DNA of 64,000 bases. Source: Candidatus Cloacimonadaceae bacterium. Its GTDB lineage: Bacteria; Cloacimonadota; Cloacimonadia; Cloacimonadales; Cloacimonadaceae. The stretch is from NCBI GenBank assembly GCA_034678545.1, contig JAXDBS010000095.1, forward strand, positions 46,248 to 110,247. The letters are read 5' to 3'. Of the stretch, positions 2,963-52,793 are shown in pieces (position 1 is the first letter of the stretch; each line of letters starts with the position of its first letter). The translations under genes and the position numbers were made by a program. Below the pieces are notes generated by a model. That model did not search any database, was not told the origin of the DNA, and saw nothing but the letters and a program-made list of their open reading frames with translations.

Positions 2963-3208
2963 CTACCGGCTGCTTCTGAAGGCGGCGGGAACGGAGACAG
3001 CCCGACCGGGCAGTTCTTCAGCTTCACTCAGAAAAGTGGATTCGAAAGCGTAGTTATGAAAGAAAATGATCTGCTTGTTGCGGTACAGGGTGATGACCAG
3101 GATCGGCTCGTCCGGGGTTTCCCCAGTCTCCACCTTAATACTGTCATAATCACAGGGCGGGACAAACATCCCGTCGATCATGGACCGTAGTTTTTTTTGC
3201 ATGTACAT
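2963..3208 (-). CDS. Hypothetical small protein
   Basis: ORF 2963-3235. ATG at 3208 is preceded by GGGAGG (3214-3219). No recognisable family. Confidence 0.35.
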   Translation of the reverse strand: MYMQKKLRSMIDGMFVPPCDYDSIKVETGETPDEPILVITLYRNKQIIFFHNYAFESTFLSEAEELPGRAVSVPAAFRSSR

Positions 3209-3361
3209 AGCGTCCTCCCTTCCGATATAATTCAACCTTAACTAGTATACAGCCAAAGTTGAGCCAAACCTGCAGGAGCCCACTTTCTTGTTGCAGGAGT
3301 TTAGGATAGGTGAGTTTAAACGCTACCATAACTTAAGAAAAAAGTAACTCTGCGTACCGGT

Positions 3362-3383
3362 GGCAGTAATAATTATTACTGCC
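3362..3383 (-). terminator. Perfect 22-bp palindrome downstream of the RND permease; weak terminator candidate
   Basis: GGCAGTAATAATTATTACTGCC lies 59 nt after the stop at 3443. On the minus strand the T-run (acttttttc) begins only about 16 nt after the stem, so it is non-canonical. Confidence 0.3.
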
Positions 3384-3442: not shown

Positions 3443-6400
3443 TCAGGGTCGGGATGCCTGATCCGATCGCCTGCCTTTTCCTGATCTCTCTTCAAAGTAG
3501 GAATAAACAACCGGTATCAGAACCAGCGTGATCAGGGTTGAACTGAGCAATCCTCCGACCACAGCCCGGGCCAGGGGGGCCTGCGCTTCGCCGCCTTCGC
3601 CCAGGCCGATGGCCATGGGGAGCAGTCCCAGCATCGTTGTGCTGGCTGTCATCAGGACAGGGCGCAAGCGCCGCCTGCCCGCCTCTTCAATGGCAGCATG
3701 CACATTCATGCCGTCCCGCCGGCGCAGCAGATTCATGGTATCAACCAGCAGAATCGCGTTGTTGACCACAATTCCAGCCAGCATAATGATCCCTATATAG
3801 GATTGGATATTGAAAGTGGTCCCGGTCAGGAACAGGATCAGGACAACTCCGATGATGGCGAAGGGAACGGAGAACATGACGACAAAGGGATCCCGCAGGG
3901 ATTCATACTGGCTGGCCATGACCATATAGACCAGGATCAGGGCCAGCACAAAGCCCAGGAGCAGTTCCCGGAAGGACTTCTGCTGTTCCTCGTAATCTCC
4001 GCCAAAGACCACGGCAAAATCCTCGGGAATGGCCACTCCCCTGAGTTTGGTCCTGACCTCGCTGATGACGGATCCCATGTCCCGGCCGCCGATATTGGCA
4101 TTGATGGAAGAAATTCTCTCCTGGTCCTGGCGTTCGATTTCGACCGCTCCCAAGCCGGATTTCAGGGTGACAGCGTTGCGTAGCACTACCGGTTGCCCCT
4201 GCTGATTGGTGATGGTAAGATTCAGGACCTCTTCCAGGCTTTGTTTATCCTCGTCCTCAACCTGCATCAGAATTGTGAATTCCTTGCCGCCCTCGCGGTA
4301 AACTCCCGCGTTGGAACCTGACAGCACTATCTGCAGCATGCGGGCGATCTGCTGCACGCTCAGACCCAGCTCCGCGGCTTTTTCCCTGTCCACAACGACC
4401 AGTTCCTCAGGCGTTCCGGTGGAACGGCTGATGTTGCTGTCAGTTACGCCTTCCACGGAATCAACGATCTTTTTGATCTGGCGGGCCAGCCGGGAGGCTT
4501 TCTCCAGGTCGTGGCCCCGGATGATTATCTCCAGCCGTCCGGCAGAGCCTTGCAGAGCGCGGAATGCCATCATGGTCGAGACGGCGAAGACGCGGACCTT
4601 GGTCCCCGGCAGGCTGCCCAGTAGTTTTCTCAATTGGTTGCCGACCTCTTCGCTGGAACGCTTTCTCTCTGCCAGGGGGACCAGCGAAATCCTCATGGAA
4701 CCGGTGTGCGACAAGGCGGCGCCCCAGCCTCCGCCCCCTGTGGAACTCACCATGTTTTTGATTTCGGGAACAGCCTTGGCGGCGATCGCTTCGATTTCCT
4801 TCATCCGGGCATCAGTGATCTCCAGTTTGGTCCCTGTTTCCAGTTCGACGTTGACGCGGATCTCGCCCTCGTCGGTCTCCGGCATCAGCTCAGACCCCAC
4901 CAGCGGGATCAGCAGCAGGCTCAGGCCCAGCGCCGCTATTGCCGATACGGCTGTGATCATCCTGTGCCTGAGCGCCAGGTGCAGCAGCTGTTTATAATTG
5001 TTTTCCAGGTTGGTGAAGAATCTGCCTGTGGCATGAAATATCCTGTCTCTGATACTCTCCCGGGAGGTGGAATCGGAATTGTTAACGGTCAGCAGTTTGC
5101 TGGCCAGGACCGGAACGATGGTCAGGGCCGTTATCATGGAACAGAAAATGGAAAATGCCACCACATAGGATAGCTGTTTAAACATGACTCCGGACATGCC
5201 CCGCATGAAGATCAGAGGCAGGAAAACCACGATAGTCGTGATCGTGGCCGCAATGATCGGGGCCGTCACTTCCCTGGAGCCTTCGATGGCAGCCTGTTTC
5301 CGGACCAAGCCCTGCTCCCGCAGGCGATAGATGTTTTCCAGCACCACGATCGAATTGTCCAGCAGCATGCCCACGCCCAGCGCCAGGCCTCCCAGGGTCA
5401 TGATATTGAGAGTGAAACCGCTGAAGTACAGCAGGCCGAAAGTCGCTATGATGGAGATGGGGATTGCCGTGGAGATGATCGCCGTGCTTCTGACGTTGCG
5501 CAGGAAGATCAGCAGGACGATGATGGCCAGCAGGCCTCCGAACACAGCTGCCAGGCCCACATTGCGGATGGAGCGGCGGATATAAACGGAGCTGTCGTTG
5601 ATGGTGACAAGTTTTACCTGCCGGATGTCGGCATTGATCCTTTCCACCTCGGCCAGGGCGGCTTTGGCGACTGCCACCGTATTGGTTCCTGATTGCTTGT
5701 TGATCGAGATCTGGATCCCCGGCACTCCGTTGACTCTTGTGTGGCGGGTGATCCTGGTCCAGGCGTCATCCACTTGCGCAAGCTGGCTCAACGTTATGAC
5801 GCTGCCGCCCCGCTCTAAAACCACGCAGTTTTCCAGTTCTTCAAGACTGTTGAATTCGCCGGGGGTGCGGATCACGATTTCTTTGTTGCCGGATATGACC
5901 GATCCGGCCGGCAGGTTGATGTTGGCGGCTTTGATCGCGGAGATTATCTGGTCCAGCGGCACTTTCAGGGCCTTGATCTTATCCGGGTCCAGATTGATAT
6001 GAATTTCGCGTTCCAGACCTCCCCGGACGCTGATGGCCGCCACCCCCGGGACACGCTCCAGCCTGTATTGGATCTGGTTGTCGATCAGTTGCCTGAGCTG
6101 CAGCGGGGGCAGATTGCTGGTAACACCCAGCATCAGGATGGGCGTGGCCGATAGGTCAAACTTGAACAGGACCGGTCGGGAGGTTTCATCCGGCAAAGCT
6201 GAGATCACCCTGTCCAGCCTGTCTCGCACGTCGTTGGAGGCCGTGTCCAGGTTGGTGCCCCAGTTGAAGGAGATGCGCACGCTGCTGTTGCCTTCGCTGC
6301 TTTCTGATTCGATCGATTCGACTCCCGGCACGGCTGCCAGGGACTGCTCGATCGGACGGGTCACCAGTTCCTCCATTTCCTCCGGACTGGCGTTGCCGTA

Positions 6401-6550
6401 GCTGGTCGAGACGCTCAGGGATGGGAAGGTGACGTCCGGCATCAGGTCTATGGGAAGGCGCAGGAAGGCTATCCCCCCCAGTATGATTACGATCAAAGTC
6501 AGCATGATCGTGAAGACGGGGCGATTGACTGCCAGTTCGGAAAGGCTCAT
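3443..6550 (-). CDS. RND efflux transporter permease (AcrB/HAE-type), 1035 aa
   Basis: Length and 12-TM architecture with two large periplasmic loops. N-terminus MSLSELAVNRPVFTIMLTLIVIILGGIAFLRLPIDLMPDVTFP is typical of AcrB-family pumps. 4-nt overlap with the adaptor gene. Confidence 0.9.
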   Translation of the reverse strand: MSLSELAVNRPVFTIMLTLIVIILGGIAFLRLPIDLMPDVTFPSLSVSTSYGNASPEEMEELVTRPIEQSLAAVPGVESIESESSEGNSSVRISFNWGTNLDTASNDVRDRLDRVISALPDETSRPVLFKFDLSATPILMLGVTSNLPPLQLRQLIDNQIQYRLERVPGVAAISVRGGLEREIHINLDPDKIKALKVPLDQIISAIKAANINLPAGSVISGNKEIVIRTPGEFNSLEELENCVVLERGGSVITLSQLAQVDDAWTRITRHTRVNGVPGIQISINKQSGTNTVAVAKAALAEVERINADIRQVKLVTINDSSVYIRRSIRNVGLAAVFGGLLAIIVLLIFLRNVRSTAIISTAIPISIIATFGLLYFSGFTLNIMTLGGLALGVGMLLDNSIVVLENIYRLREQGLVRKQAAIEGSREVTAPIIAATITTIVVFLPLIFMRGMSGVMFKQLSYVVAFSIFCSMITALTIVPVLASKLLTVNNSDSTSRESIRDRIFHATGRFFTNLENNYKQLLHLALRHRMITAVSAIAALGLSLLLIPLVGSELMPETDEGEIRVNVELETGTKLEITDARMKEIEAIAAKAVPEIKNMVSSTGGGGWGAALSHTGSMRISLVPLAERKRSSEEVGNQLRKLLGSLPGTKVRVFAVSTMMAFRALQGSAGRLEIIIRGHDLEKASRLARQIKKIVDSVEGVTDSNISRSTGTPEELVVVDREKAAELGLSVQQIARMLQIVLSGSNAGVYREGGKEFTILMQVEDEDKQSLEEVLNLTITNQQGQPVVLRNAVTLKSGLGAVEIERQDQERISSINANIGGRDMGSVISEVRTKLRGVAIPEDFAVVFGGDYEEQQKSFRELLLGFVLALILVYMVMASQYESLRDPFVVMFSVPFAIIGVVLILFLTGTTFNIQSYIGIIMLAGIVVNNAILLVDTMNLLRRRDGMNVHAAIEEAGRRRLRPVLMTASTTMLGLLPMAIGLGEGGEAQAPLARAVVGGLLSSTLITLVLIPVVYSYFEERSGKGRRSDQASRP

Positions 6551-7752
6551 GGCCTGGCCCCGCGTTTGTCCGGCTTGCCTGGATTGTTATTGTTCTGCGC
6601 CAGGCTGATGCTGCCTCCGTCCTGCAGCTGTTCCTGACCCAGGATGACAATCTCTCCAGACAGTTCAGGTTCCACCACTTCGGCGTTTTGCGCGTCCCGG
6701 ATGCCGGTTTTCAACGGAACGAACCTGGCGGTCAGTTTTTCTTTGTCAGCCAAAAAAACTCCCTGTTGGCCGTCGCGCTCGACCAAAGCCGCCAAGGGGA
6801 CCACAGGCACGTCCTTGTGTTCGGAATATATGATCGAGACCCGGACGAACATGCCCGGCTTGAGCAGGCCATCAGGATTGGGAATTTCAATTTCGGCCCG
6901 GGCCTGTCTGGACGACTCCTGCAATACGGGCGCCAGCCTGGCCAGCCGGCCCGGAAAAATCTTATCCGGATAGGCGTCAGTTGTTATGTCCACCGCCTGG
7001 TCGGCGCGGATACGGACATAATCCTTTTCTATGACGTCGATCTCTGCGGTTACGGAGCTGTTGTCAACCAGGGTCAGGATTGGGGTGTTGGCTGTCAAAA
7101 TGTCTCCCTCGTCGGCGAAGATCTCTCCCACCAGGCGGGTCTTGCCGCCGCCGGACCAGGAGGCTTTTATTTTTGTATACGAATATTGGATCTCGGCTTT
7201 GGTCAGGGCGGCCTGGGCTTTCCTTACTTCTGCCAGGGCAATTTCGTGTTTGGCCCGGGTTGCGGCATAATCGGCATCAGCTTTATCCATTGCCCCCTGG
7301 GATTCGTAGTTTTGTTCAAACAACCGTTTTACGGTCTGCCAGGCGCCTTCCTCAGCTTTCATCGCCAGGCGCAACTGCTCCACCTGGGCCTGGGCAACTG
7401 CCAGAGCTGCGCGGTTTTGTTCCAACTCCTGCTGGTAAAGGGAAGCGTCCATTTCTGCGATGACCTGGCCATTGCTTACTCTGTCGCCCAGATGTACCAG
7501 CAGCCTTTCCAGCCTGCCGGACAACTGGGGCGCCACAGTGTAGGTGGCATTGGATTTAAGTGAGCCGCCAAATCTTCCAACATCCTGCATGGCCGCCAGG
7601 CGCACCGGCGCAGTCTCGACTGGAACGGTGAATCTGTCTCTGGGCTTTCCGCCGGGTCCGGCTTCCGCCTTTTTATCTGATACCGTCTGTATTATCCGCC
7701 AGCCGATCAGGGCCACCAGTACAATCACAACGATCCACAGTACCTTTTTCAT
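6547..7752 (-). CDS. RND efflux periplasmic adaptor (HlyD/MFP family)
   Basis: N-terminal TM anchor, coiled-coil hairpin region (LEQNRAALAVAQAQVEQLRLAMKAEE...) and beta-barrel region. Translationally coupled to the RND permease. Confidence 0.85.
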   Translation of the reverse strand: MKKVLWIVVIVLVALIGWRIIQTVSDKKAEAGPGGKPRDRFTVPVETAPVRLAAMQDVGRFGGSLKSNATYTVAPQLSGRLERLLVHLGDRVSNGQVIAEMDASLYQQELEQNRAALAVAQAQVEQLRLAMKAEEGAWQTVKRLFEQNYESQGAMDKADADYAATRAKHEIALAEVRKAQAALTKAEIQYSYTKIKASWSGGGKTRLVGEIFADEGDILTANTPILTLVDNSSVTAEIDVIEKDYVRIRADQAVDITTDAYPDKIFPGRLARLAPVLQESSRQARAEIEIPNPDGLLKPGMFVRVSIIYSEHKDVPVVPLAALVERDGQQGVFLADKEKLTARFVPLKTGIRDAQNAEVVEPELSGEIVILGQEQLQDGGSISLAQNNNNPGKPDKRGARP

Positions 7753-7821
7753 TGGTTACTCCTGTCTGATGCATTAATATTCAACCCGTTCCGGATACCT
7801 CAGCATGGGTGTTAAATGGTT

Positions 7822-7837
7822 TGCATTTTTCTATCCA
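7822..7837 (-). promoter_or_regulatory. Weak sigma-54-type (-24/-12) promoter candidate upstream of the RND operon
   Basis: The minus strand reads TTGGATAGAAAAATGCA. GG and GC have the canonical GG-N10-GC spacing and -12 is TGCA, but -24 is TGGATA instead of TGGCAC. The -12 element is about 70 nt upstream of ATG 7752 and directly downstream of the sigma-54 activator gene. Confidence 0.25.
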
Positions 7838-8105
7838 ATCTGGCTGTTTTCCGGTCAAGCTTTTTCTGAGACCGGATGTTGTTGTCTCGTATCAAAGGAT
7901 GTTTTTCGCTTTCTTCTGCCGATTTCTCAGTGAAGGATATAACTTCAGGCTGGAATCTTGATGTCGATCGGAATCCTGTTTTTCTGGTATAATTGAAACA
8001 TTGATTTCTATATTAGTCAATCCCATCTGGATATTCTGTTGGCAGCCAGCCAATTTACTGGCTGGTTGGGAGGGATGCTGCCAGGAAACTCCTCAGGCGT
8101 TGATT

Positions 8106-9641
8106 TCACTGGATACCCAGCGCCTTTAACCTCGCCCGGAACGTATGCGGCTGCAGTTTGAGCAGGCGGGCGGCACGGGAGGCGTTGCCGCGGGCTTTGC
8201 TGAGCGCGGCGCGGTAGTAGAGGGGCAGGATCTCCTTTTCCAGGTCGATCCCGTCGTCCGGGATGGAGATGGAAACTTCAGGTCCGTCGGTGACGCTTTT
8301 GCATTCTATGTCCTCTGGCCGGATGGTATCGTTCTTGCAGTTGATGCAGGCGATCTGGATGATGTTGCGCAGTTCGCGCACGTTGCCCTTCCAGGTATGG
8401 GCCAGCAGGATCTTTTCCGCGGGCGGGGAGAGCTTTTTCTGCGTCTGGTGCTGGTGGTTGAAGAGCCGGATGAAGTGCCCGGCCAGCAGCAGGATGTCCG
8501 TGCCGCGAGTGCGCAGGGGCGGCAGGCCGATCTCATAATTGACGATGCGGTAAAACAAGTCTTCCCGGAATTTGCCTTCGTACACCAGGTCACGCAGGTT
8601 TCTGTTGCTGGCGGTCAGCAGCCTCACGTTGACCTTGGCGACGCGCCCGCCCACAGGAGTGATCTCGCCGCTTTCCAGCACCCGCAGCAGCTTCACCTGC
8701 ATGCTCAGGGGCAGGTCCGCCACCTCGTCCAGGAAGAGGGTGCCGGTGTCCGCGTCCTTGAAATAGCCGGGATGGTCGGCAATAGCGCCCGTGAAGGAAC
8801 CTTTTCTATGGCCGAAGAATTCGCTTTCGAACAGGTTTTCGCTGATGGAGCCGCAGTTCACCGGGATGAAGGGTTTCATTTTCCGGATGCTCTGCCGGTG
8901 GATGAGCCGGGCCACGACCTCTTTGCCGGTGCCGCTTTCCCCGCTGATGTGGACGGGCAGGTCATACCTGGAGATGGTGTTGATCATGTTCTTGACGCTC
9001 TGGATGGAGTCGCAGTTGCCGATAAAATTCTCAAACTCATGCTCGACCATCTGCTTCAGCATCACGTTTTCCCGGCTCAGGCGGGTGGCCTCCACCACTA
9101 TGTAATCAATGGCCTCTTCTTTTTCCACCCCGGTTTTTTTGCGGGTGTCGCGCGGGCTTTCCAGAGAGTAACAGACACGCTCCATCTGGGGAAAGTCATT
9201 GAGGCGGAAGGAGATCGGCGTGACGCCCTGCTCCCGGGAACTTTGGATCAGTTCCGCTTGGATGATCCCGCCCTGCTTGAGCAGCACCCAGCAGGAATGC
9301 ATGGTGGGCGTGCCCGAGGTGACAGACACGGTGAACTGCGTTGTTTTGGGATTTTCCTTTTTCAGGATGTTGGTCACGGCATTGTACATGGCGGGATAGA
9401 CCAGGTTGTAATCGATGGGGTCCAGCGTCACTGCCGGTTCAAAGAACACCTGCAGGGCGGGGAACTTCGCCTTGCACCAGTCACGGATCTCGTAAGCGTG
9501 CTCCAGGTAGGCTTCCTTGTTGAACAGGATGTAGAGCGCGTCAAAGGGCCGCTCCCTCAGGATGCTGACAATGGCGCCCTCCTTCCCTTCGCTCAGGTAG
9601 CAGTCATTGTTCCCGATAAAACTCAACAATGCTTTCTTCAT
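8106..9641 (-). CDS. Sigma-54-dependent transcriptional activator with an RtcR-like N-terminal CARF domain
   Basis: AAA+ bEBP core: GESGTGKEVVARLIH (Walker A), GSFTGA (GAFTGA loop), TLFLDEV (Walker B). C-terminal Fis-type HTH: GNASRAARLLKLQPHTFRARLKALGI. The N-terminal ~155 aa (LLSFIGNNDCY...VSVTSGTPTMHSCWVLLKQGGIIQAELIQSS) parallels the E. coli RtcR CARF domain (FGFVGTVLDY...IHITTGTHVAQICWFLLAEARYLPARLIQSS, from memory). Start moved to ATG 9641 (GGGAGA 7 nt upstream); the track start at 9656 is a TTG. Confidence 0.85.
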   Translation of the reverse strand: MKKALLSFIGNNDCYLSEGKEGAIVSILRERPFDALYILFNKEAYLEHAYEIRDWCKAKFPALQVFFEPAVTLDPIDYNLVYPAMYNAVTNILKKENPKTTQFTVSVTSGTPTMHSCWVLLKQGGIIQAELIQSSREQGVTPISFRLNDFPQMERVCYSLESPRDTRKKTGVEKEEAIDYIVVEATRLSRENVMLKQMVEHEFENFIGNCDSIQSVKNMINTISRYDLPVHISGESGTGKEVVARLIHRQSIRKMKPFIPVNCGSISENLFESEFFGHRKGSFTGAIADHPGYFKDADTGTLFLDEVADLPLSMQVKLLRVLESGEITPVGGRVAKVNVRLLTASNRNLRDLVYEGKFREDLFYRIVNYEIGLPPLRTRGTDILLLAGHFIRLFNHQHQTQKKLSPPAEKILLAHTWKGNVRELRNIIQIACINCKNDTIRPEDIECKSVTDGPEVSISIPDDGIDLEKEILPLYYRAALSKARGNASRAARLLKLQPHTFRARLKALGIQ

Positions 9642-9896: not shown

Positions 9897-9980
9897 CCCT
9901 TGCTTGCACTACGGACCCATTACGGACCCAATACGGACTTTATCCGTATTGGGTCCGTAATGCTAACAGGGGCGGAGCGG
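9897..9980. repeat. Palindromic intergenic repeat, copy 1 of 3 (~85 bp)
   Basis: cccttgcttgcacTACGGACCCATTACGGACCCAATACGGActttaTCCGTATTGGGTCCGTAAtgctaacaggggcggagcgg. Perfect hairpin arms at 9920-9937 and 9943-9960 (stem extendable to 9918-9962), loop CTTTA. The left arm is made of 11-nt direct repeats TACGGACCCAW. Near-identical copies are at 34381-34465 and 48994-49077. Confidence 0.9.
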
Positions 9981-10473: not shown

Positions 10474-13400
10474 ATGCTTAAAAGCAAGCAGTGTTTAATC
10501 ATTCTGATGGTGTTATTTCTGTTTACCGGCCTGTCAGCCCTGCCGGTTGAACTAAGCCCGGCCCAAGTCAGAGAGGTCGCCGATAAATATGCCAGACAGC
10601 TTTGGGGCAGCCAGCTTAATCCCGCAGAGCCGATTCCCTATTACAGTCCGGATGAGAAAATCATCGCCTGGCACTTCAACTATGCCATCGGCGGAACCTT
10701 CCCGGACAGGGCAACTCTGCAGCAGAGAAGCGACGCTGCTTTCAAAGCAGGCAACCGCGACCTGGGCTGGGGCAATGAAGAATTCGGCAACATGGTGGTG
10801 GGTGCCAACCGCAATATGCCTGTCTTCGTGGAATATTCCAAATGCCTGTCCAAACAATACGCTCTGGGCACCAAGATAGAGGAACTGGCAGCCAAAGCCT
10901 TTCCGGAAGGATATAAGTTTGGCAAGACCTATTACCTCGGACCTGTGAGTGTCTGGTTTGCCGTCAGTAATGGCAGGGAAACCAAATACATCAATCCGGA
11001 ACCCAAAGCCCGGACCTATTCCGAAACTCAGTTCAGGGAGTATGTTGAATCCATGCGCCTGTTCTGGACCCGGGACAACTTTGAAGATGACTGGTCCCGC
11101 ATCCTGGATGATGGACAAATCCTGAGGCTGGATAGATCTGCCTTTATTCTTTACAGAGAAAAGATGCCATACTACGAATGGCATGAAGGCTGCACTCCCT
11201 CTTCAGCGTCCATGCTGCTTGCCTGGTGGGATAACCGCTATGACAATATCGGCAACCTGACCCGCTATACGATGTCCAAATACGACACAGTTCAGAACCA
11301 GACAGATCATCACGTGACAGATGCCTGCCTTTCACTGCACAATCACATGGATACAGATTCAGAAGGCAGCACCAGCAGAGAAGATATCTGCGACGGATAT
11401 ATTGCGACAGTTGAAAACAGGGGTTACAACTGCTCTTCGGATGGACATTGGGCTGCTTCCTGGGAACCCCGGGAGATCTTTAACGATATCAAAGGACAGA
11501 TAGATCAGGGTTTTCCGGTGCATGTCAGCATACCGAATCATTCTGTAATTGGAGTGGGTTATTCGGATGATCCGGATATGGTGACAGTGCATGATCCCAA
11601 CATGTCCACCGACCGTATCATCAATCGGGGTATACTGGAAGGCGCTTACTGGGTGCACATAGAAGCCAATCCCAACCATAACAAGGTTGATGTGCTCTCA
11701 CCGGACGGCGGTAAGGAATGGGGCACCAATAACGGCGGTGAAACCCTGTACTCCGGTGAAATGTATGAGATCAGATGGGACAGCACCTTCTTCCCTTATA
11801 CCTATGCCAAGATCTATTACCACGACGAAGGCGGATCCACAACAGACGGATGGACTCTCATTACAGCCAATACTCCCAACGACGGCAGTTATGACTGGCT
11901 GGTGCCCCCCATCGATTGTTTCTATGGAAACTCTACTGCATATGGCAGGATCAAGATCGAGATCTATAACTCCAATACCAGCCTGATGATAGCCAGCGAC
12001 GGCAGCCATGGCAATTTTACAATCATGCCCGGCGGCAGCCTGCCTGCCCTAAGCGGCATCCTGCAAAACGTTGACCGCACTCCGGACTTTTTCTCCGCCA
12101 ACCTCAATGAAACAGGATGCTGGTATGTGATCTCCATTATGGACAACATCCAGGAGGCATATAATCCTTGGGATATTGAATTATACAACAACACCGGTTT
12201 TTCCGGTCTCTTGGAAACAGCAACCGGAAGTGACATAGTAAACTATCTGGTGGTAAATAATTATCAGCAGTCGCCCTTTGAATACGGAGTTAAATTCATC
12301 AATCCGGCAGGGAATACAGCAGCTAAAGTGCATAAATCCGGGGATCCGGGCAATACTTTGACCACAGGCACCAATAACCTGACCTGGTATTCCACCCGGG
12401 CTGCGGAAATGTGGAACCTGTATCTGACTCCGGAAACCTATTACTTCGAAATGACAGGGGCGGATTCAACCGCCGATCTGGATATATCAGTCTATCAAAG
12501 CAACGGAGACGGATTCCAGACCTATCAGCAGGCTGTTGTTGCCTCCCACAACCTGGGAGCAGGTATCGCTGAATCCTTCCATTTTTCGCCCACAGCGAAT
12601 GGCTGGTATGGAGTATGTGTAAGCTCGAGAACCCTGGTGCAGACTGATTTTACGATCAATATCAGCACGGCTGGAAACTGGACCGGCGCGATCAGCACAG
12701 ATTGGCATACACCCGGCAACTGGTCAGGCAACGTCGTTCCCGACCTCAATGATAATGTGGTTATCCCCTCCGGCAGCAGCAACTATCCCCTTGTGAATGC
12801 CAATGCCTTTATCAAGTCTCTGACCCTAGAGACAGATGCCACCCTGCATATCGGTGCATCAGGATATCTCAGCGTGTACGGCAACCTGACTGTCTATGGA
12901 TTCGTATATCTGGATAATTCCACAAGCGTGCTGGACATAGCCGGTAATGTCAGTTGGGAAGCAGGCTCGCAACTGTTTACTGACAGCAACGCCAATATCT
13001 ATTGCTACGGCAACTGGACCTTCCAGAACGGCACCATCTTCCAGCCGGACGGCGGTATTGTGCATTTCCAGTCCAATCAGGACAGCTATATCGCCAATTA
13101 TGACAACAACTCCAGTTTCCATAACCTTGTTATCAACAAAATGGAAGGCAAGACTGTCTTCTATAGCCAGGGTTCCACCAATGACCTCAAGGTCAATGGA
13201 CAATTGACTCTGCAGGCCGGATATCTGGGCTCCACTTCCAGCCGCACGATAAGTTCATTAGGTCAGTTGGTCACAATCGGAGGAGGCTTCCGCCTGGACA
13301 ACGGGACTTTTAAGATAGGCGGAAACACTGCCACGCTGGTCTGCCAACCCAATACTTGGTTCAATCACCTGCAGATCAACAGCTCGCAGCAGATCCAGTT

Positions 13401-16898: not shown

Positions 16899-16947
16899 AA
16901 CGGGCAAGACCGGTAAAAATATTTACTGACCTTGCCCCGTTTTTTTA
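16899..16947 (+). terminator. Rho-independent terminator of the giant gene
   Basis: aacgggcaag...cttgccccgtt stem (one bulged G) followed by ttttttt. Lies 33 nt after the stop. Confidence 0.7.
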
Positions 16948-17281
16948 CCAATAAGCTTATTGCCTGACCAGCAGAGAGATACGCGGATCTTTGCTCTTTC
17001 TAAACGCGGCCAGACAGTTTAACATCCCGTTCGCAAGCATTAGGATGGTTGCATTCAATCCTTTGCTGTAGAGCGTTTATCCACCGCTACTGTCCATATT
17101 CCGTCCAATATAAGACAATTACGTCTGCCAACCTGAGCATATCCCTTTCTGCAAGAGGCTTGTTTGTTTTCATATCCCAGACGGGGAGTGGTCAGAATAT
17201 TTACTTTCAGAACACAGCCCGGCAATCTGGCCGGAGTGTTTAAGATACTATATGTCATGGAGATGTGATTGAAATGCGGAT

Positions 17282-17297
17282 TGGAACGCAAGGTGCG
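17282..17297 (+). promoter_or_regulatory. Sigma-54-type (-24/-12) promoter candidate for the 17368-18696 gene pair
   Basis: TGGAACGCAAGGTGCG compared with consensus TGGCACG-N4-TTGCW. GG (17283-84) and GC (17295-96) have the exact canonical spacing, and 10 of 13 specified positions match. The -12 element is 72 nt upstream of ATG 17368. It overlaps the perfect palindrome GCGATATATCGC (17295-17306). Confidence 0.35.
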
Positions 17298-17367: not shown

Positions 17368-17712
17368 ATGCTCAGGTCGGAGATCAGGCAGGTTTTGGGT
17401 GTGGACTTACCCATAGAGGGCGGGAATGGAACAAGTCTGGAAGAGGCGATCGTCATCCGTAAGCGCAAGGGGCATGACATTTACTCAGTGGAAAGTGCTG
17501 TCCTAAAATACCTGTACGAACGATACTGCCTTGCGCAGGAATTGGTCAAGCAGGAACTGCTGAGCAGGGAGGGCAGGATTTATGACAGGTTCGTATCCTT
17601 TTGCCAATATAAAGAAAACAAGCCGGATGAGATAGATCTGGTCAATGTTTACTTTGACATCACCGACTGCTGGAACCGGAAAGCCAAGCCCGGCAAACAG
17701 CAGAATTCATAG
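17368..17712 (+). CDS. Hypothetical protein (114 aa)
   Basis: ATG with GGGAGG 7 nt upstream. Only 9 nt separate its stop from the next gene. No family recognised (contains IEGGNGTSLEEAIVI...YFDITDCW). Confidence 0.6.
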   Translation: MLRSEIRQVLGVDLPIEGGNGTSLEEAIVIRKRKGHDIYSVESAVLKYLYERYCLAQELVKQELLSREGRIYDRFVSFCQYKENKPDEIDLVNVYFDITDCWNRKAKPGKQQNS

Positions 17713-17721
17713 GAGGTAAAC

Positions 17722-18696
17722 GTGCAACAACTACACGAACTATTCATCAAAACCATTAGATGGGGAGATCGTCAGGCCTTCGGCGGCATGACCGTATTTC
17801 CCATCTTCACAAGTCAGGAGAAGGACCTGGCTTATCTGAGCCTTAAACAGGCCATAGCACAGCGGCTGCTGGTGATCACGGAGATTAGCGAGGGAGGCTC
17901 GGTGCCCAATCTCAAAGTCCAGAACAACGCCGACCTGCCGGTTCTGCTTTTGGACGGGGAGGAGATCTCCGGTGCCAAGCAGAATCGAATCCTCAACACC
18001 AGCATCCTGCTGAAGGAGAAATCGGAGGCGATCATCCCGGTCAGTTGCACGGAGCGGGGAAGATGGTCCTATGACCAAAGGCATTTCAGTGAATCAGGGC
18101 ATGTGGCGAGCGCGTCCGTCCGATCTTCAAAACTGGGCGATGTCGCTTGCTGCCTGAGGTCTGAAAGGTCTTTCAGATCCGACCAGGGAAAGGTCTGGCA
18201 AGAGATAGACAAGATGAGTTCGCGACTGGAAGTGAGATCTGGTTCCGACGCAATGAAAGACATGTACGACGCCAGCCAGGATAAGCTGCAGGATTACCTG
18301 GCCCGGTTTCCCCGCCTGGAAAGCCAGACCGGCATGGCTGTCTGTTTTGAGGACAGGGTAGCCGGTCTGGATGTGCTGTCCCGGCCCGAGGTGTGGGCTG
18401 ACCTGCATGAAAAGCTGATCCGCAGCTATGCAGTGGATTGCCTGGGACGCACTATGAAAGAAAGCACCTGCCAGTTGGAACAGGTCAGGGCTTTCCTGGA
18501 TAAGTTCTCTGCCTGCACACCCCAATCCTTTCCCTCCATCGGTTACGGCGAGGATCTCCGCTATGAAAGTCCCGAACTGATTGGGGCGGGTCTGGTCTGG
18601 CAGGATTCTTTCATTCATCTGGAACTATATGCCAGGTTCGGTCAGGCATCTCAGTATGACACCAGGTATCACAGTCCGCGCCACAGGTTCCATTAA
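17722..18696 (+). CDS. Uncharacterised protein, DUF6569/ARPP-1-like (tentative family assignment)
   Basis: GTG start with AGGAGG 5 nt upstream. The N-terminal block GGMTVFPIF...YLSLKQAIAQRLLVITEISEGGSVPNLKVQNNADLPVLLLDGEEISGAKQNRILNTSILL...IPVSCTERGRWS matches my recollection of the conserved core (LLLDGEEL.GAKQNR.LN...PVSCVE.GRW) of proteins annotated as ARPP-1 / DUF6569 family. Function unknown. Confidence 0.55.
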   Translation: MQQLHELFIKTIRWGDRQAFGGMTVFPIFTSQEKDLAYLSLKQAIAQRLLVITEISEGGSVPNLKVQNNADLPVLLLDGEEISGAKQNRILNTSILLKEKSEAIIPVSCTERGRWSYDQRHFSESGHVASASVRSSKLGDVACCLRSERSFRSDQGKVWQEIDKMSSRLEVRSGSDAMKDMYDASQDKLQDYLARFPRLESQTGMAVCFEDRVAGLDVLSRPEVWADLHEKLIRSYAVDCLGRTMKESTCQLEQVRAFLDKFSACTPQSFPSIGYGEDLRYESPELIGAGLVWQDSFIHLELYARFGQASQYDTRYHSPRHRFH

Positions 18697-18794
18697 TCCT
18701 GATAGCTGTAACACTGAACTGCGGCGGTAAGCCCAAGGAATCTGAACAAACTGACAGCTTAAGAACTCAGCCCTGTCCGGCTAACCGTTAACTG

Positions 18795-18832
18795 GAAGTC
18801 ATCCCTGCCCGCCGGGGATGACTTCTCTTCTG
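18795..18832 (+). terminator. Hairpin terminator candidate after the DUF6569-like gene
   Basis: gaagtcatccc-tgcccgccg-gggatgacttc (11-bp stem, 18795-18825) followed by the pyrimidine-rich tcttctg. The U-tract is imperfect. Confidence 0.45.
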
Positions 18833-18949
18833 ATCAGTACTGGTGAAACCTTAGCCTGCCTTGTAAAATGCCAGGCGGAAATCCGGAATCTGATAACTTA
18901 TCAACTGGCGTTTCTTGACAGAAAAACGTCCGTTTTAAAGAGGGAATCC

Positions 18950-19663
18950 ATGGATAAAACAAATGATCAGGATGAAGTTCAGTCGGTCGATGTAAAGAGC
19001 TTACTGGATGACTGCATTATAAAACACACCCGGCGTCGGAGCATCGGTTTTTTCCTGACAGGCGACAACCGGCTGGAAGTACGGGTGCCTCTGAAAATGT
19101 CCGAAGAGAGTGCCAGGGCCACGGTGGAACGGAACCGGAAATGGCTGCTTCAGAAGGTGGGAGCCATCCTGCAAGCGCGTCTTCCGGTACGGAACTTCCA
19201 GGATGGTGATATCCTGTTTTATTTGAGAGAACCCTACAAGTTGAAATTCGTCCACGGCCTCAATGATTACATCGTTTTAACTGATCAGATCTGCATAAAT
19301 TCCCATCTGCAAAACCAGGCGGAAAAACTGCTCACAGCCTGGTACCGCTATCAGGCAGGCAAGGTCCTGGTCCAGCGCACCCTGATGTGGAATGCCAGGC
19401 TCCTACTAAAGCATAGGCCGGTAAAGATCTCCAATGCTTCCTCCCGGTGGGGTTCGTGTTCCAACATGGGAAACATCAACCTGAACTGGAGGCTGGTCAT
19501 GGCTCCGCTGGAGATCATTGACTACGTGGTCGTGCACGAGTTGCTCCATCTGGAGGAATTGAACCATTCCAAGGCTTTCTGGGCCAGGGTTAAGGAAGTT
19601 CTGCCTGACTACCAGCAACGGCGTCAGTGGTTGAAGGAAAACTCGCATCGGTTGAAGCTCTGA
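18950..19663 (+). CDS. DUF45/YgjP-like (M48-related) zinc metallohydrolase
   Basis: WGSCSNMGNINLNWRLVMAPLEIIDYVVVHELLHLEELNHSKAFW, i.e. the WGSC...HELxHLxxxNHS HExxH signature of the YgjP/DUF45 family. Start moved to ATG 18950 (MDKTNDQ). Confidence 0.8.
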   Translation: MDKTNDQDEVQSVDVKSLLDDCIIKHTRRRSIGFFLTGDNRLEVRVPLKMSEESARATVERNRKWLLQKVGAILQARLPVRNFQDGDILFYLREPYKLKFVHGLNDYIVLTDQICINSHLQNQAEKLLTAWYRYQAGKVLVQRTLMWNARLLLKHRPVKISNASSRWGSCSNMGNINLNWRLVMAPLEIIDYVVVHELLHLEELNHSKAFWARVKEVLPDYQQRRQWLKENSHRLKL

Positions 19664-34380: not shown

Positions 34381-34465
34381 CCCTGCTTGCACTACGGGCC
34401 CAATACGGACCCAATACGGACTTTGTCCGTATTGGGTCCGTAATGCTATTAAGGGCGAAGCAGGG
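34381..34465. repeat. Palindromic intergenic repeat, copy 2 of 3
   Basis: ccctgcttgcacTACGGGCCCAATACGGACCCAATACGGACtttGTCCGTATTGGGTCCGTAatgctattaagggcgaagcaggg. Hairpin at 34404-34442. The outer ends CCCTGCTT / AAGCAGGG are also complementary. Confidence 0.9.
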
Positions 34466-48993: not shown

Positions 48994-49077
48994 CCCTGCT
49001 TGCATTACTTACCCATTACGGACCCATTACGGACTTTATCCGTAATGGGTCCGTAATGCCAGCAGGGGCGAAGGCGG
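48994..49077. repeat. Palindromic intergenic repeat, copy 3 of 3
   Basis: ccctgcttgcatTACTTACCCATTACGGACCCATTACGGActttaTCCGTAATGGGTCCGTAAtgccagcaggggcgaaggcgg. Arms at 49016-49033 and 49039-49056 (stem extendable to 49014-49058). Carries a paired A>T / T>A change relative to copies 1 and 2. Confidence 0.9.
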
Positions 49078-51935: not shown

Positions 51936-52793
51936 TTAGCGGGAGAGGCAGAGGCAGCGGTCGCGGCCGGCCAGGTCCTTCCGCAGTTCGGATGTGAGGA
52001 AACCGTTTTCCCTGGCCAGTTCGATGACTGACCGGGCCTGCGTTTCGCCGATCTCCAGATAGATCCTGCCCTTGTAACTAAGGCGTTTTGCGGCTTTGGC
52101 CAGGATCCTCCGAAAAGCGTCAAGTCCGTCCTTACCAGCAAGCAGAGCCAGTTGGGGCTCGTGCAGACTGATCTCGGCGGCCAGTCCGGAAAATTCGGAA
52201 GTGGAGACATAGGGCGGATTGGAAACTATCAGATCGAATTTCTCCGGCTTTTTGGGAAAGAGGTCAGCAACCGTGAAGCGCAGTTCAAGGCCCAGGCGGC
52301 GGGCGTTGGCGCGAGCCAACAGGATGGCGGGATGGGAGATGTCTGTGGCTGTAATCTTTAGATCAGGATTATGGTGTTTCAGGGCCAGGGCGATGGCGCC
52401 GCTGCCCGTACCGATGTCCAGAACGGCGAGCAGGCCCTGCTCCCGGTTCAGGATCCACTGCACCAGGCATTCAGTTTCGGGACGCGGGATCAGGACGCAG
52501 GGATCGACCAGCAGGTCCAGTCCGTAAAAGCAGGTGTGCCCCAGAATGTACTGCAACGGCTCCTGCAGGATGAGACGGTTGACCCAGTCGCGCCATCTGG
52601 TCAGCGCTTCCGCGTCGAGGCGCAAGTCCTTGTGCAGAGCCAGTTCGGGCCGGGTGAGTCCGGTCAGTTCCGAAAGCAATAGGTGGAATCTGGACAGAGA
52701 AATGTTATGTTCAGACGAAAGAGAAACAGATTCCGAAAGCAGCGAGAACAGGTCGGCAGATCCGTCAGGCGCTTTGCTTGATGTTCTTTTCAA
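51936..52793 (-). CDS. prmC: Release-factor glutamine N5-methyltransferase PrmC/HemK
   Basis: VLDIGTGSGAIA SAM motif and IVSNPPY catalytic motif. 29-nt overlap with the upstream gene, so the start is somewhat uncertain. Confidence 0.85.
   Translation of the reverse strand: MKRTSSKAPDGSADLFSLLSESVSLSSEHNISLSRFHLLLSELTGLTRPELALHKDLRLDAEALTRWRDWVNRLILQEPLQYILGHTCFYGLDLLVDPCVLIPRPETECLVQWILNREQGLLAVLDIGTGSGAIALALKHHNPDLKITATDISHPAILLARANARRLGLELRFTVADLFPKKPEKFDLIVSNPPYVSTSEFSGLAAEISLHEPQLALLAGKDGLDAFRRILAKAAKRLSYKGRIYLEIGETQARSVIELARENGFLTSELRKDLAGRDRCLCLSR

What the first reader, a model, noticed from the sequence alone, without database searches (positions are those of the whole stretch)
8106..9641. 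Orphan RtcR-like CARF + sigma-54 activator with no RNA-repair operon nearby
Seen: the first ~155 residues (LLSFIGNNDCY ... DPIDYNLVYPAMYNAV ... VSVTSGTPTMHSCWVLLKQGGIIQAELIQSS) match, block for block, the N-terminal CARF domain of E. coli RtcR as I remember it (FGFVGTVLDY ... NPWDFEEVYACLHDFA ... IHITTGTHVAQICWFLLAEARYLPARLIQSS). A standard bEBP AAA+ core (Walker A, GSFTGA, Walker B) and a Fis-type HTH follow. Established: RtcR is normally divergent from rtcBA, and its CARF domain gates the ATPase in response to a nucleotide or RNA-end ligand. Here the neighbours are an RND efflux pair downstream on the same strand and a 2130-aa secreted protease divergently. No rtcB, rtcA, cas gene or cyclase occurs in the 64 kb. 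Inference: this is a ligand-gated sigma-54 switch rewired to an unknown regulon. Candidate targets in this window are the RND operon and the 17368-18696 cassette, each of which has a -24/-12-like element.
Basis: partly seen in the sequence, partly recalled or inferred. Interest (0 to 1): 0.72.

Follow-up and report, generated by a model that had tools for sequence, protein, structure and literature searches.

The report
CARF-gated sigma-54 activator, targets found
This gene encodes a ligand-sensing switch protein of a catalogued but unstudied family related to the RNA-repair regulator RtcR. It is not really an orphan: its predicted DNA docking sites and sigma-54 promoters sit in front of two small gene sets in the same window, and not in front of the efflux pump next to it.

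Summary
Window 8106-9641 (minus strand) encodes a 511-aa CARF + sigma-54 AAA+ + Fis-HTH activator. Its CARF blocks align with real E. coli RtcR, and an AlphaFold model matches only CARF structures. No rtcA, rtcB or cas gene lies in the 64 kb.

It is not an RtcR orthologue. It fails NCBIfam's RtcR cut-off (277 vs 650 bits) and matches PADLOC's separate model RtcR_PspF2 end to end (E 2e-130). None of about 85 related loci carries rtcBA.

Across this family (Cloacimonadota, Neomarinimicrobiota, Desulfobacterales and others), the palindrome GTAAA-N4-TTTAC follows the activator gene, often as a pair 22 bp apart. A -24/-12 promoter and an operon come next, usually a TPR histidine-kinase-like gene and a receiver-like gene. 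The window's subclade has lost that pair.

In the window, GTAAW-N4-WTTAC occurs exactly twice (0.05 expected). Each copy lies upstream of a -24/-12 element conserved in orthologous loci. One precedes an 81-aa gene (3208-2963, minus strand), the other the 17368-18696 cassette (small protein + ARPP-1). The RND pair has neither element.

The ligand is unknown. This is a new variant of a known kind, of moderate interest.

The parts
8106..9641 (-). CDS of the 511-aa CARF + sigma-54 AAA+ + Fis-HTH activator (RtcR_PspF2 family)
   Evidence: ORF and translation. Pfam domains. PADLOC PDLC01995 matches end to end, E 1.8e-130. dN/dS is 0.12-0.20 against orthologues.
9192..9641 (-). CARF sensor domain (residues 1-150), with motifs SFIGNND, DYNLVYPAM and SVTSGTPTMH
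   Evidence: PF06956 24.5 bits. AF2 pLDDT 92.8. All top Foldseek hits are CARF domains. Invariant residues across 17 family members. The blocks align with E. coli RtcR.
8304..9023 (-). Sigma-54 interaction AAA+ module with lid (residues 207-446); Walker A GESGTGKE, GSFTGA loop, Walker B LFLDEV
   Evidence: PF00158 E 5e-62 and PF25601 E 6e-20. Motifs read.
8121..8210 (-). Fis-type HTH (residues 478-507), predicted to read the GTAAW-N4-WTTAC palindrome
   Evidence: PF02954 23.8 bits. The DNA specificity is inferred from family-wide co-occurrence.
3366..3379 (.). Predicted enhancer (UAS): GTAATAATTATTAC, the core of the perfect 18-bp palindrome CAGTAATAATTATTACTG, about 106 bp upstream of the sm70 promoter
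   Evidence: One of only two GTAAW-N4-WTTAC matches in the 64 kb (0.05 expected). Sequence read. Orthologous positions carry tandem palindromes.
3251..3266 (-). -24/-12 sigma-54-type promoter TGGCTCAACTTTGGCT, ending 43 bp before the sm70 ATG
   Evidence: One base different from the L018 orthologous promoter TGGCACAACTTTGGCT. Compare L015 TGGAACGCAACTGGCT and L016 TGGATCAGTTATGGCT and TGGCATGCCTTTTGCG.
2963..3208 (-). sm70: an 81-aa gene with no known domain (MFVPPxDYDxI...ITLYxN...FFHNY). Predicted primary target.
   Evidence: tblastn: 66% identity to the small gene that directly follows the activator plus enhancer in L018. HMM hits only in this family's loci. dN/dS 0.11. No Pfam or PADLOC hit.
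16913..16926 (.). Predicted enhancer: GTAAAAATATTTAC, the only exact GTAAA-N4-TTTAC in the window, about 362 bp upstream of the cassette promoter. It overlaps a terminator-like hairpin of the 2130-aa gene.
   Evidence: Nearly identical to the L104 site AGTAAAAATATTTACC, which sits about 90 bp upstream of the cassette promoter there.
17191..17204 (.). Degenerate palindrome GTCAGAATATTTAC (2 mismatches in one half-site), at the position (about 85 bp upstream of -24) where orthologous cassettes carry their palindrome
   Evidence: Sequence. Position compared with L009, L016/L105, L017, L103 and L104.
17282..17297 (+). -24/-12 sigma-54-type promoter TGGAACGCAAGGTGCG, ending 71 bp before the small114 ATG
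   Evidence: The same TTGGAAC[GA]-N4-GTGCG lies before the cassette in L009 and L017, although the flanking sequence does not align. PWM score alone (11.4 bits) is not significant.
17368..17712 (+). small114: conserved roughly 100-aa protein of unknown function, first gene of the cassette
   Evidence: Orthologues sit next to ARPP-1 in L009, L016, L017, L103 and L105. dN/dS 0.14. No Pfam or PADLOC hit.
17722..18696 (+). ARPP-1 (PF20208) protein, second gene of the cassette
   Evidence: Pfam E 1e-96. Iyer et al. 2022 (PMC9503650) place ARPP in predicted ADP-ribose-centred conflict systems. AF2 pLDDT 89 with no PDB structural relative.
18818..19663 (+). YgjP-like metallopeptidase-fold gene, a possible third gene of the cassette (loosely linked)
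   Evidence: Pfam E 8e-54. It follows ARPP-1 in L009, L103, L104 and L105. In L016 a 616-aa ORF lies between the two.

Best explanation
The gene encodes a ligand-gated bacterial enhancer-binding protein of the RtcR_PspF2 family. This family is a sister of RtcR, not RtcR itself.

Proposed mechanism:
1. The C-terminal Fis-type HTH binds GTAAW-N4-WTTAC palindromes. This is inferred from family-wide co-occurrence.
2. The N-terminal CARF domain holds the AAA+ ring inactive until a nucleotide-type ligand binds. This is inferred by analogy with RtcR and other CARF proteins; the ligand is unknown.
3. The AAA+ ring, through its GSFTGA loop, then opens sigma-54 closed complexes at -24/-12 promoters about 100 bp (or more) downstream of the palindromes.

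The window holds two such enhancer-plus-promoter units:
- Unit 1: 3366-3379 plus 3266-3251, driving the 81-aa gene sm70 (3208-2963, minus strand).
- Unit 2: 16913-16926 and 17191-17204 plus 17282-17297, driving small114 and ARPP-1, perhaps with YgjP (17368-19663, plus strand).

The MFP-RND pair lies between the activator and unit 1 and is probably not a target. The 2130-aa gene lies between the activator and unit 2.

What is shown and what is inferred:
- Shown: domain architecture, CARF fold, family membership, absence of rtcBA, the motif positions and their conservation, purifying selection.
- Inferred: DNA-binding specificity, sigma-54 dependence of the two promoters, direction of CARF control, nature of the ligand.
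For: Architecture and fold.

Family: PADLOC RtcR_PspF2 at 434 bits over the full length, against RtcR at 175 bits.

Family-wide enhancer:
- 34 of 57 non-redundant loci have a GTAAA-N4-TTTAC site (at most 1 mismatch) within -20 to +250 bp of the activator's stop codon. About 0.045 per locus is expected by chance.
- 14 of them have a pair 21-23 bp apart, mostly 22 bp.
- TGGCAY-N5-xTGCA promoters follow in the same gaps.

Window: GTAAW-N4-WTTAC occurs exactly twice in 64 kb (0.05 expected; 0 of 100 shuffles reach 2). Both copies are intergenic and upstream of GG-N10-GC elements.

Unit 1:
- In L018 and L015 the order is activator stop, two palindromes, promoter, sm70.
- In L009, L016 and the window, the same palindrome-promoter-sm70 unit lies after the RND genes.

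Unit 2:
- The cassette is adjacent and divergent to the activator in L009, L017 and the P0184 contig. The last of these lacks the RND pair.
- The promoter TTGGAAC[GA]-N4-GTGCG is conserved in the window, L009 and L017.
- A palindrome sits 85-120 bp upstream in L009, L017, L016/L105, L103 and L104.

Selection: synonymous sites are near saturation (pS 0.5-0.9) while dN/dS is 0.1-0.2 for the activator, sm70, small114 and ARPP-1. The conserved intergenic motifs are therefore not simply shared ancestry.

Sigma-54: an rpoN homologue lies on the same contig as a family member (L082).
Against: - No experiment supports any step.
- By PWM score alone, neither window promoter stands out. The cassette promoter scores 11.4 bits, and about 4 sites above 11.8 bits are expected by chance. 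The sm70 promoter has a TGGCT -12 box that scores below 9.4 bits.
- I widened the palindrome pattern to W at two positions after seeing the 3366 site. The strict pattern gives one hit, at 16913.
- The 16913 site lies inside a terminator-like hairpin and is 362 bp from the promoter. The site at the orthodox position (17191) has two mismatches.
- In L016/L105, L103 and L104 the cassette keeps TTGGAAC and the palindrome but lacks the GC of the -12 box. In L103 and L104 no activator lies within 10 kb.
- The cassette is not seen within 10 kb of the activator in the L015 and L018 lineages.
- rpoN was not looked for in this genome itself.
Confidence: 0.6

Rival explanations
1. It is a true RtcR orthologue whose rtcBA operon has moved elsewhere in the genome and is still its only target.
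For: The Pfam RtcR domain just passes its cut-off. The CARF blocks and AAA+ region align with E. coli RtcR. The rest of this genome could not be searched.
Against: NCBIfam RtcR equivalog scores 276.6 bits against a 650-bit cut-off. The PADLOC RtcR model scores 175 bits against 434 for RtcR_PspF2. tblastn with E. coli RtcA and RtcB finds nothing in the window or in 1.3 Mb of about 85 distinct related loci. The family has its own conserved downstream operon and enhancer.
Confidence: 0.03
2. It is the transcriptional arm of cyclic-oligoadenylate signalling. The CARF domain binds cOA (for example cA6) made by a type III CRISPR Cas10 or another cyclase elsewhere in the genome, and switches on the two units during infection.
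For: The best structural matches are cOA-bound CARF effectors: Csm6 with a cA6 analogue (TMq 0.78), Cam1, Csm6', Card1 and Csa3. In sequence, phmmer hits Csm6' at E 0.019, and PADLOC CARF1--CARF_HEPN scores E 5e-15 on residues 2-129. One relative, P0003, lies beside a type III-A Csm locus with Card1. ARPP-1 belongs to predicted conflict systems.
Against: No cas or cyclase gene was identified in the window. Among the related loci, no recurrent neighbour family other than C1/C2, MFP and an ABC ATPase emerged, though those loci were not screened specifically for cas genes. P0003 is truncated at residue ~300, and the CRISPR island with an AEP-TOTE gene overlaps its end, which looks like disruption rather than partnership. 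The motif after strand 4 lacks the K/R typical of cOA binders, as in RtcR. Foldseek similarity reflects the fold, not ligand specificity, and no RtcR CARF structure is in the PDB copy for comparison.
Confidence: 0.12
3. It regulates the adjacent MFP-RND efflux operon, acting as an efflux or stress switch.
For: Same strand, 354-bp gap, and the adjacency recurs in the window, L009, L016 and L015. A GG-N10-GC element (TGGATAGAAAAATGCA) starts at 7837 on the minus strand, about 70 bp upstream of the MFP start.
Against: That element scores only 9.9 bits, and I found no positional counterpart when reading L009. No palindrome with at most 1 mismatch lies in 7753-8105. The RND pair is missing from the L018 lineage and the P0184 contig, which keep the activator with sm70 or the ARPP cassette. 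In L015 the RND pair lies after sm70, not before it, so it behaves as a movable insert.
Confidence: 0.08
4. It is a relict: the subclade lost the family's normal histidine-kinase/receiver operon, and the activator now has no functional output.
For: C1 and C2 are absent from the window and from most of the subclade. The palindromes directly after the stop codon are gone in the window. One cassette palindrome is degenerate.
Against: dN/dS is 0.12-0.20 with all catalytic motifs intact. 72-82% identity is kept across at least six lineages. The palindrome-promoter-sm70 unit stays together through rearrangements.
Confidence: 0.1

Closest known systems
RtcR (E. coli / Salmonella), the CARF-AAA+-HTH sigma-54 activator of rtcBA
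   Same: Same three-domain order. RtcR-type CARF motifs (T-[ST]-G-T, no K/R after strand 4). 29% identity over 370 aa. Presumably the same logic: CARF restrains the ATPase until a signal arrives.
   Different: Below the RtcR equivalog cut-off. No rtcBA anywhere near any family member. Different targets. An own palindromic enhancer is placed after the gene rather than in a divergent intergenic region. The E. coli rtcR-rtcB spacer has only GTAAA half-sites.
RtcR_PspF2--CARF_AAA_HTH (PADLOC-DB v2 model PDLC01995). The name looks like one from the CARF census of Makarova et al. 2020; this is my recollection, and the paper was not available.
   Same: End-to-end match, residues 3-511 to model positions 2-481 of 481, E 1.8e-130. 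This is the family I file it under.
   Different: Only a sequence model with no described function. The enhancer, the promoters and the targets (sm70, TPR-kinase/receiver pair, ARPP-1 cassette) are worked out here and were not found in the searched literature.
RtcR-like CARF activators linked to restriction-modification systems and CoCoNuTs (Makarova 2014, PMC4012209; Bell 2024, PMC11090510)
   Same: CARF-NtrC-HTH proteins not linked to Rtc. They sit at the head of same-strand gene arrays and are proposed to switch on conflict genes through sigma-54.
   Different: No R-M, McrBC or HEPN cargo here. The cargo is a small unknown protein and an ARPP-1 cassette, or a TPR-kinase/receiver pair in the wider family.
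ARPP + WYL transcription-factor two-gene neighbourhoods (Iyer, Burroughs, Anand, de Souza and Aravind 2022, PMC9503650)
   Same: An ARPP protein paired with a ligand-sensing transcription factor from the CRISPR-associated sensor repertoire.
   Different: The sensor here is CARF on a sigma-54 activator, not WYL-HTH. The pairing is restricted to one Cloacimonadota subclade. More distant ARPP-1 genes have other partners, for example a DndB-like gene.
Csa3, a CARF-wHTH transcription factor that binds cA4
   Same: A CARF domain that controls transcription directly. It is among the structural matches. The family also has short CARF-HTH forms without the ATPase.
   Different: Csa3 is sigma-70/archaeal-type, has a winged HTH, is CRISPR-linked and has no AAA+ module.

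Membership tests
RtcR (NCBIfam NF038308 equivalog) | Whole-protein score at or above the curated cut-off (650 bits) | tested here: not met
   276.6 bits
RtcR (NCBIfam NF038308 equivalog) | Gene divergent from, or adjacent to, rtcB/rtcA | tested here: not met
   No RtcA or RtcB by Pfam in the scanned window ORFs or by tblastn in the window and 100 loci
RtcR (NCBIfam NF038308 equivalog) | N-terminal RtcR-type CARF domain (PF06956) | tested here: met
   24.5 bits against a 23.1 cut-off, which is marginal. The blocks align with E. coli RtcR.
RtcR_PspF2 CARF_AAA_HTH (PADLOC PDLC01995) | Full-length match to the family profile, better than to sister profiles | tested here: met
   434.3 bits, residues 3-511 to profile 2-481 of 481. 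Sister profiles: RtcR_PspF1 199.9 bits, RtcR 175 bits.
CARF superfamily | Rossmann-like CARF fold | tested here: met
   AF2 pLDDT 92.8. The top 50 Foldseek PDB hits are all CARF proteins, best TMq 0.78.
CARF superfamily | Binds a nucleotide-derived ligand in the pocket formed by the strand-1 and strand-4 loops | not testable with these tools
   The loop motifs SFIGNND and SVTSGTPTMH are invariant or nearly so in 17 members.
Bacterial enhancer-binding proteins (sigma-54 activators) | AAA+ core with Walker A/B and a GAFTGA loop | tested here: met
   PF00158 E 5e-62. GESGTGKE, GSFTGA and LFLDEV read.
Bacterial enhancer-binding proteins (sigma-54 activators) | Upstream activating sequences plus a -24/-12 promoter at the target genes | tested here: met
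   Family-wide palindromes after the gene (34 of 57 loci) followed by TGGCAY-N5-xTGCA. Two such units in the window. All are predictions.
Bacterial enhancer-binding proteins (sigma-54 activators) | rpoN present in the same genome | tested here: inconclusive
   An rpoN homologue (E 2e-42) lies on contig L082 next to a family member with 61% CARF identity. The genome of the window itself could not be searched.
Type III CRISPR-Cas ancillary CARF proteins | Encoded in or beside a cas10-containing locus | tested here: not met
   No cas gene in the scanned window ORFs. Only the truncated relative P0003 abuts a Csm locus.

The most novel reading that the evidence does not exclude
The RtcR_PspF2 family may be a widespread, undescribed signalling circuit. 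A CARF sensor would read an infection- or damage-derived nucleotide and, through sigma-54 and a dedicated 22-bp-phased enhancer, switch on a second signalling tier: a cytoplasmic TPR histidine-kinase-like protein plus a receiver-domain protein with a novel output domain. In this Cloacimonadota subclade, the same sensor and enhancer would have been re-targeted to an ARPP-1 cassette (a predicted ADP-ribose/nucleotide conflict module) and to a tiny orphan protein. That would make it a natural example of enhancer-site capture rewiring a CARF regulon.
Probability: 0.3. Interest if true: 0.7.

Novelty: new variant of a known kind. Interest (0 to 1): 0.45.

Why it matters
CARF domains are best known as cyclic-oligoadenylate receptors that switch on nucleases. 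RtcR is the one case where a CARF domain drives sigma-54 transcription, and its signal is still debated.

This family offers a second, phylogenetically broad CARF-sigma-54 system. Its predicted enhancer is unusually clear (GTAAA-N4-TTTAC, often two copies 22 bp apart), and its regulons are small and well defined. That makes its ligand and output directly testable: genomes can be scanned for the regulon, and the CARF domain can be screened against candidate ligands.

The link to ARPP-1 ties a so-far purely computational 'conflict' protein to an inducible promoter. For annotation, the practical lesson is that these proteins should not be named 'RNA repair transcriptional activator RtcR family', as several NCBI records do.

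Tried and rejected
1. Plus-strand reading of 8106-9641: full of stops. The gene is on the minus strand.
2. Sequence search of the PDB with the CARF domain: only a marginal Csm6' hit. E. coli RtcR CARF has no entry in the PDB copy, so no direct structural comparison with RtcR was possible.
3. Type III CRISPR link via P0003: the gene is truncated where the island begins, and no other locus shows cas genes. I treat it as disruption, not partnership.
4. MAFFT alignment of the cassette upstream regions: not alignable. Motifs had to be found by pattern.
5. Sigma-54 consensus and PWM scans of the whole window: no enrichment over shuffles, and most top hits are inside genes. Promoter calls therefore rest on position and conservation, not on score.
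6. A site starting at 53861 (minus strand) that looked like a promoter lies inside a small STAS-like ORF. Dropped.
7. An ECF-sigma reading of the conserved TTGGAAC (GGAAC as a -35 box): I found no conserved -10 box at 16-17 nt when reading the sequences. The palindrome about 100 bp upstream fits an enhancer better. Not formally excluded for L103, L104 and L016, where the -12 GC is missing.
8. First metagenome scan with the single protein found nothing. The second, with a clade alignment, gave L077-L100.
9. sm70 as a detached N-terminal piece of the C1 kinase-like protein: the HMM finds no C1 hit. Rejected.
11. The ARPP-1 model (pLDDT 89) has no PDB structural relative (best E 0.024, TMq 0.16).
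12. Remnants of C1 or C2 in the window: none.
13. The Makarova 2020 CARF census could not be read, and the profile name is not in the searchable literature.
Full report
**1. The observation**

The ORF at 8106-9641 is on the minus strand (ATG at 9641, 511 aa). Read on the plus strand it is full of stops.

Pfam finds four domains:
- an RtcR/CARF domain, PF06956, at residues 34-137 (24.5 bits against a 23.1 cut-off);
- a sigma-54 interaction domain at residues 207-371 (E 5e-62);
- the AAA+ lid;
- a Fis-type HTH at residues 478-507.

GESGTGKE, GSFTGA and LFLDEV can be read directly in the translation.

I fetched E. coli rtcR from NC_000913.3.

An AlphaFold model of residues 2-153, built on a 17-sequence alignment, has pLDDT 92.8. 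All of its top 50 PDB matches are CARF domains. The best is E. italicus Csm6 bound to a cA6 analogue (TMq 0.78), followed by Cam1, Csm6', Card1 and Csa3. No RtcR CARF structure is in the PDB copy.

The neighbours are as described:
- MFP at 6547-7752 and an AcrB-type RND transporter at 3443-6550, downstream on the same strand;
- a divergent 2130-aa protein with a C39-like peptidase domain.

The rest of the window is housekeeping: tRNAs, tuf, rpoB, and nucleotide and cell-wall genes. No RtcA, RtcB, Cas or cyclase domain was found in any scanned ORF. ORFs at 22-25 kb and the rpoC-sized ORF were not scanned. tblastn with E. coli RtcA and RtcB also finds nothing.

**2. What family it is**

- It fails NCBIfam's RtcR equivalog (276.6 bits against a cut-off of 650).
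- PADLOC-DB holds three separate CARF_AAA_HTH models. The protein matches RtcR_PspF2 end to end (434 bits, E 1.8e-130), against 200 bits for RtcR_PspF1 and 175 bits for RtcR.
- So it belongs to a catalogued sister family of RtcR.
- RtcR-like CARF-NtrC-HTH proteins without Rtc linkage are already in the literature. Makarova et al. 2014 report an association with R-M systems, and Bell et al. 2024 report one with CoCoNuTs.
- Full-length relatives are numerous. A scan of GTDB genomes with a CARF-only alignment returned 62 loci. They come from Cloacimonadota (the majority, and by best hits the source of the window), Neomarinimicrobiota, Desulfobacterales, Calditrichota, KSB1 and others.
- None of the roughly 85 distinct loci (1.3 Mb) contains rtcA or rtcB.

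**3. What the family normally controls**

I clustered all ORFs of the fetched loci. One neighbourhood dominates, on the same strand directly after the activator:
- C1, 500-1000 aa, with TPR repeats, a His-kinase-like H-box (NLSHSIKN) and a GHKL ATPase domain. It is present in 36 loci.
- C2, about 350 aa, with no Pfam hit. By eye it has a receiver-like N-terminus (ILYVEDE...IIDRNL). It is present in 25 loci.

The gap between the activator and C1 often carries a good -24/-12 element, for example TGGCACGCTATGTGCA or TGGCATGTAACCTGCA.

While looking for enhancers I found the palindrome GTAAA-N4-TTTAC lying immediately after the activator's stop codon:
- 34 of 57 non-redundant loci have a site with at most 1 mismatch within -20 to +250 bp of the stop. 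About 0.045 per locus is expected by chance.
- 14 of those have a tandem pair 21-23 bp apart, mostly 22 bp, which is two helical turns.

The activator is the only gene common to all these loci, including the subclade that lacks C1 and C2. I therefore infer that its HTH reads this palindrome. An rpoN homologue lies on the same contig as one family member (L082).

**4. The window's subclade**

Proteins 72-82% identical to the query come from at least six lineages: the window, L009/L010, L015/L077-79, L016/L105, L017, L018/L080-81 and the P0184 contig. They lack C1. Only L016/L105 keeps C2.

Unit 1: palindrome, promoter and sm70.
- L018: activator stop, CTGTAAAAATATTTACCC, 22 bp on CCGTAAAAATATTTACCA, about 65 nt, TGGCACAACTTTGGCT, then a 68-aa ORF.
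- L015: the same order, with the promoter TGGAACGCAACTGGCT.
- The window: the homologous 81-aa gene sm70 is at 3208-2963 on the minus strand (66% identity). It lies just past the RND gene.
- It is preceded by TGGCTCAACTTTGGCT (3266-3251), which differs from the L018 promoter by one base.
- About 106 bp further upstream is the perfect 18-bp palindrome CAGTAATAATTATTACTG, with its core at 3366-3379.
- L009 and L016 show the same unit after their RND genes. L016 has two copies of it.
- In L015 the RND pair lies after sm70. In L018 and the P0184 contig it is absent.
- So the palindrome-promoter-sm70 unit stays together, while the RND pair moves or disappears.
- sm70 has no Pfam or PADLOC hit and only 7 relatives among 1.84 billion representative proteins.

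- small114 (17368-17712) and ARPP-1 (17722-18696, PF20208, E 1e-96) are directly divergent from the activator in L009, L017 and the P0184 contig.
- They are 3.9 kb away in L016/L105 and 7.7 kb away in the window, where the 2130-aa gene intervenes.
- The element TTGGAAC[GA]-N4-GTGCG precedes the cassette in the window (17282), L009 and L017, although the flanks do not align.
- A palindrome sits 85-120 bp upstream in L009 (exact), L017, L016/L105, L103 (exact) and L104 (exact).
- In the window the positionally equivalent site (17191-17204) has two mismatches.
- The only exact GTAAA-N4-TTTAC in the 64 kb lies 362 bp upstream, at 16913-16926. It is embedded in a terminator-like hairpin.

With the two W positions allowed, GTAAW-N4-WTTAC occurs exactly twice in the window, at 3366 and 16913. 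The expectation is 0.05, and none of 100 shuffles gives two. I introduced the W after seeing the 3366 site, so this statistic is somewhat favourable. GTAAT half-sites are, however, common in the family's tandem sites.

Synonymous sites between these lineages are near saturation (pS 0.5-0.9). dN/dS is 0.1-0.2 for the activator, sm70, small114 and ARPP-1. All four are therefore real genes under selection, and the conserved intergenic motifs are not merely inherited.

**5. The RND operon**

- The 354-bp gap at 7753-8105 has no palindrome with at most 1 mismatch.
- Its best GG-N10-GC element scores 9.9 bits, and I found no positional counterpart when reading L009.
- Given also that the RND pair is movable and dispensable, I consider it an unlikely target.

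**6. What the targets do**

ARPP was defined by Iyer, Burroughs, Anand, de Souza and Aravind (2022). They describe it as a protein of unknown fold with an invariant Cys and Gln. It is found in predicted ADP-ribose-processing conflict systems and also in two-gene neighbourhoods with a WYL transcription factor.

My model of the window's ARPP-1 is confident (pLDDT 89) but has no structural relative in the PDB. More distant ARPP-1 genes have other partners, for example a DndB-like gene. The CARF-activator pairing is therefore specific to this subclade.

small114 and sm70 remain unknown. The output is plausibly a stress or conflict response, but this is inference.

**7. The ligand**

The ligand is unknown. 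The motif after strand 4 (SVTSGTPTMH) lacks the K/R typical of many CARFs, as does RtcR's. That fits an RtcR-like signal, which the cited literature proposes to be RNA ends with 2',3'-cyclic phosphate.

Structural and profile similarity is highest to cOA-binding Csm6-type CARFs, so a cyclic oligoadenylate is not excluded. The one CRISPR-adjacent relative is a truncated gene.

**8. Verdict**

The protein is a CARF-gated sigma-54 switch, but it belongs to a known sister family rather than being a rewired RtcR.
- It is not an orphan.
- I rate it a new variant of a known kind, interest 0.45. The added value is the family-wide enhancer, which makes the regulon and the ligand directly testable.

Noticed in passing
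window 9900-9975, 34383-34458, 48996-49071: Three copies of a roughly 75-bp intergenic repeat (CCCTGCTTGCACTACGGACCCATTACGGACCCAATACGGACTTTATCCGTATTGGGTCCGTAATGC...GGGGCGAAGC). It contains a 17-19-bp perfect inverted repeat and looks like a REP/MITE-type element. The core occurs 9 times against 0.07 expected; copies are aligned.
   Followed up: partly
P0005-P0053; loci L047, L054, L062: Many Cloacimonadota encode short (about 238-aa) forms of this family. They have the same CARF domain, coiled-coil linker and C-terminal HTH, but no AAA+ module. They sit in front of the same C1-C2 (kinase-like/receiver-like) pair. They could act as ligand-dependent repressors or competitors at the same palindromes.
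   Followed up: partly
L003-L008 (ENA contigs carrying P0003): A family member with 52% identity in its CARF domain is truncated at about residue 300. At that point an island begins that carries an AEP-TOTE gene, Card1, a Cas_APE2256 (Csm6-like) gene and a complete type III-A csm operon. The CRISPR island appears to have inserted into the activator gene.
   Followed up: partly
L011 11631-14454, L013 11629-15313, L042 11686-14432 and about 30 other loci: This is the family's usual cargo. C1 is a cytoplasmic TPR + HisKA-like + GHKL protein. C2 is a roughly 350-aa protein with a receiver-like N-terminus and a conserved C-terminal domain (motif SE[CFY]G.H) that has no Pfam or PADLOC match. It may be an uncharacterised two-component-like module under CARF/sigma-54 control.
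   Followed up: partly
window 10474-16866 (+); L016 7135-10032 (-): In two lineages, different very large secreted-protein genes lie between the activator and the ARPP cassette. The window has a 2130-aa protein with a C39-like peptidase domain. L016/L105 has a 965-aa CarboxypepD_reg/FlgD_ig protein with a Por_Secre_tail (T9SS) signal. This intergenic region seems to be a hotspot for insertions.
   Followed up: no
P0297 (1996 aa) and P0299 (3420 aa): Residues 17-50 of sm70 match 11 separate stretches of a 1996-aa protein (E 6.5e-20). The sm70 core may therefore also exist as a repeat unit in giant proteins.
   Followed up: no
L101 5081-5268 (E. coli rtcR-rtcB intergenic region): Upstream of the canonical rtcBA promoter CTGGCACGACGGTTGCAAT there are two GTAAA half-sites (CGGTAAATTGG, ACGTAAAGATA) but no full GTAAA-N4-TTTAC palindrome. 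This may be a distant echo of the same HTH specificity, or chance.
   Followed up: no
window 53680-53987 (-) and 52765-53676 (-): A small STAS-like ORF (by reading; not scanned) is followed by a receiver + HATPase_c_2 (RsbW-like) protein, which looks like a partner-switching module. The sigma-54-like match starting at 53861 lies inside the STAS-like ORF and is probably not a promoter.
   Followed up: partly
L009 1-4502: In the closest complete relative, an Eco57I-type N6 methyltransferase and a Fic protein lie a few kb beyond the ARPP cassette. This hints at a defence-island-like setting that is absent from the window.
   Followed up: no
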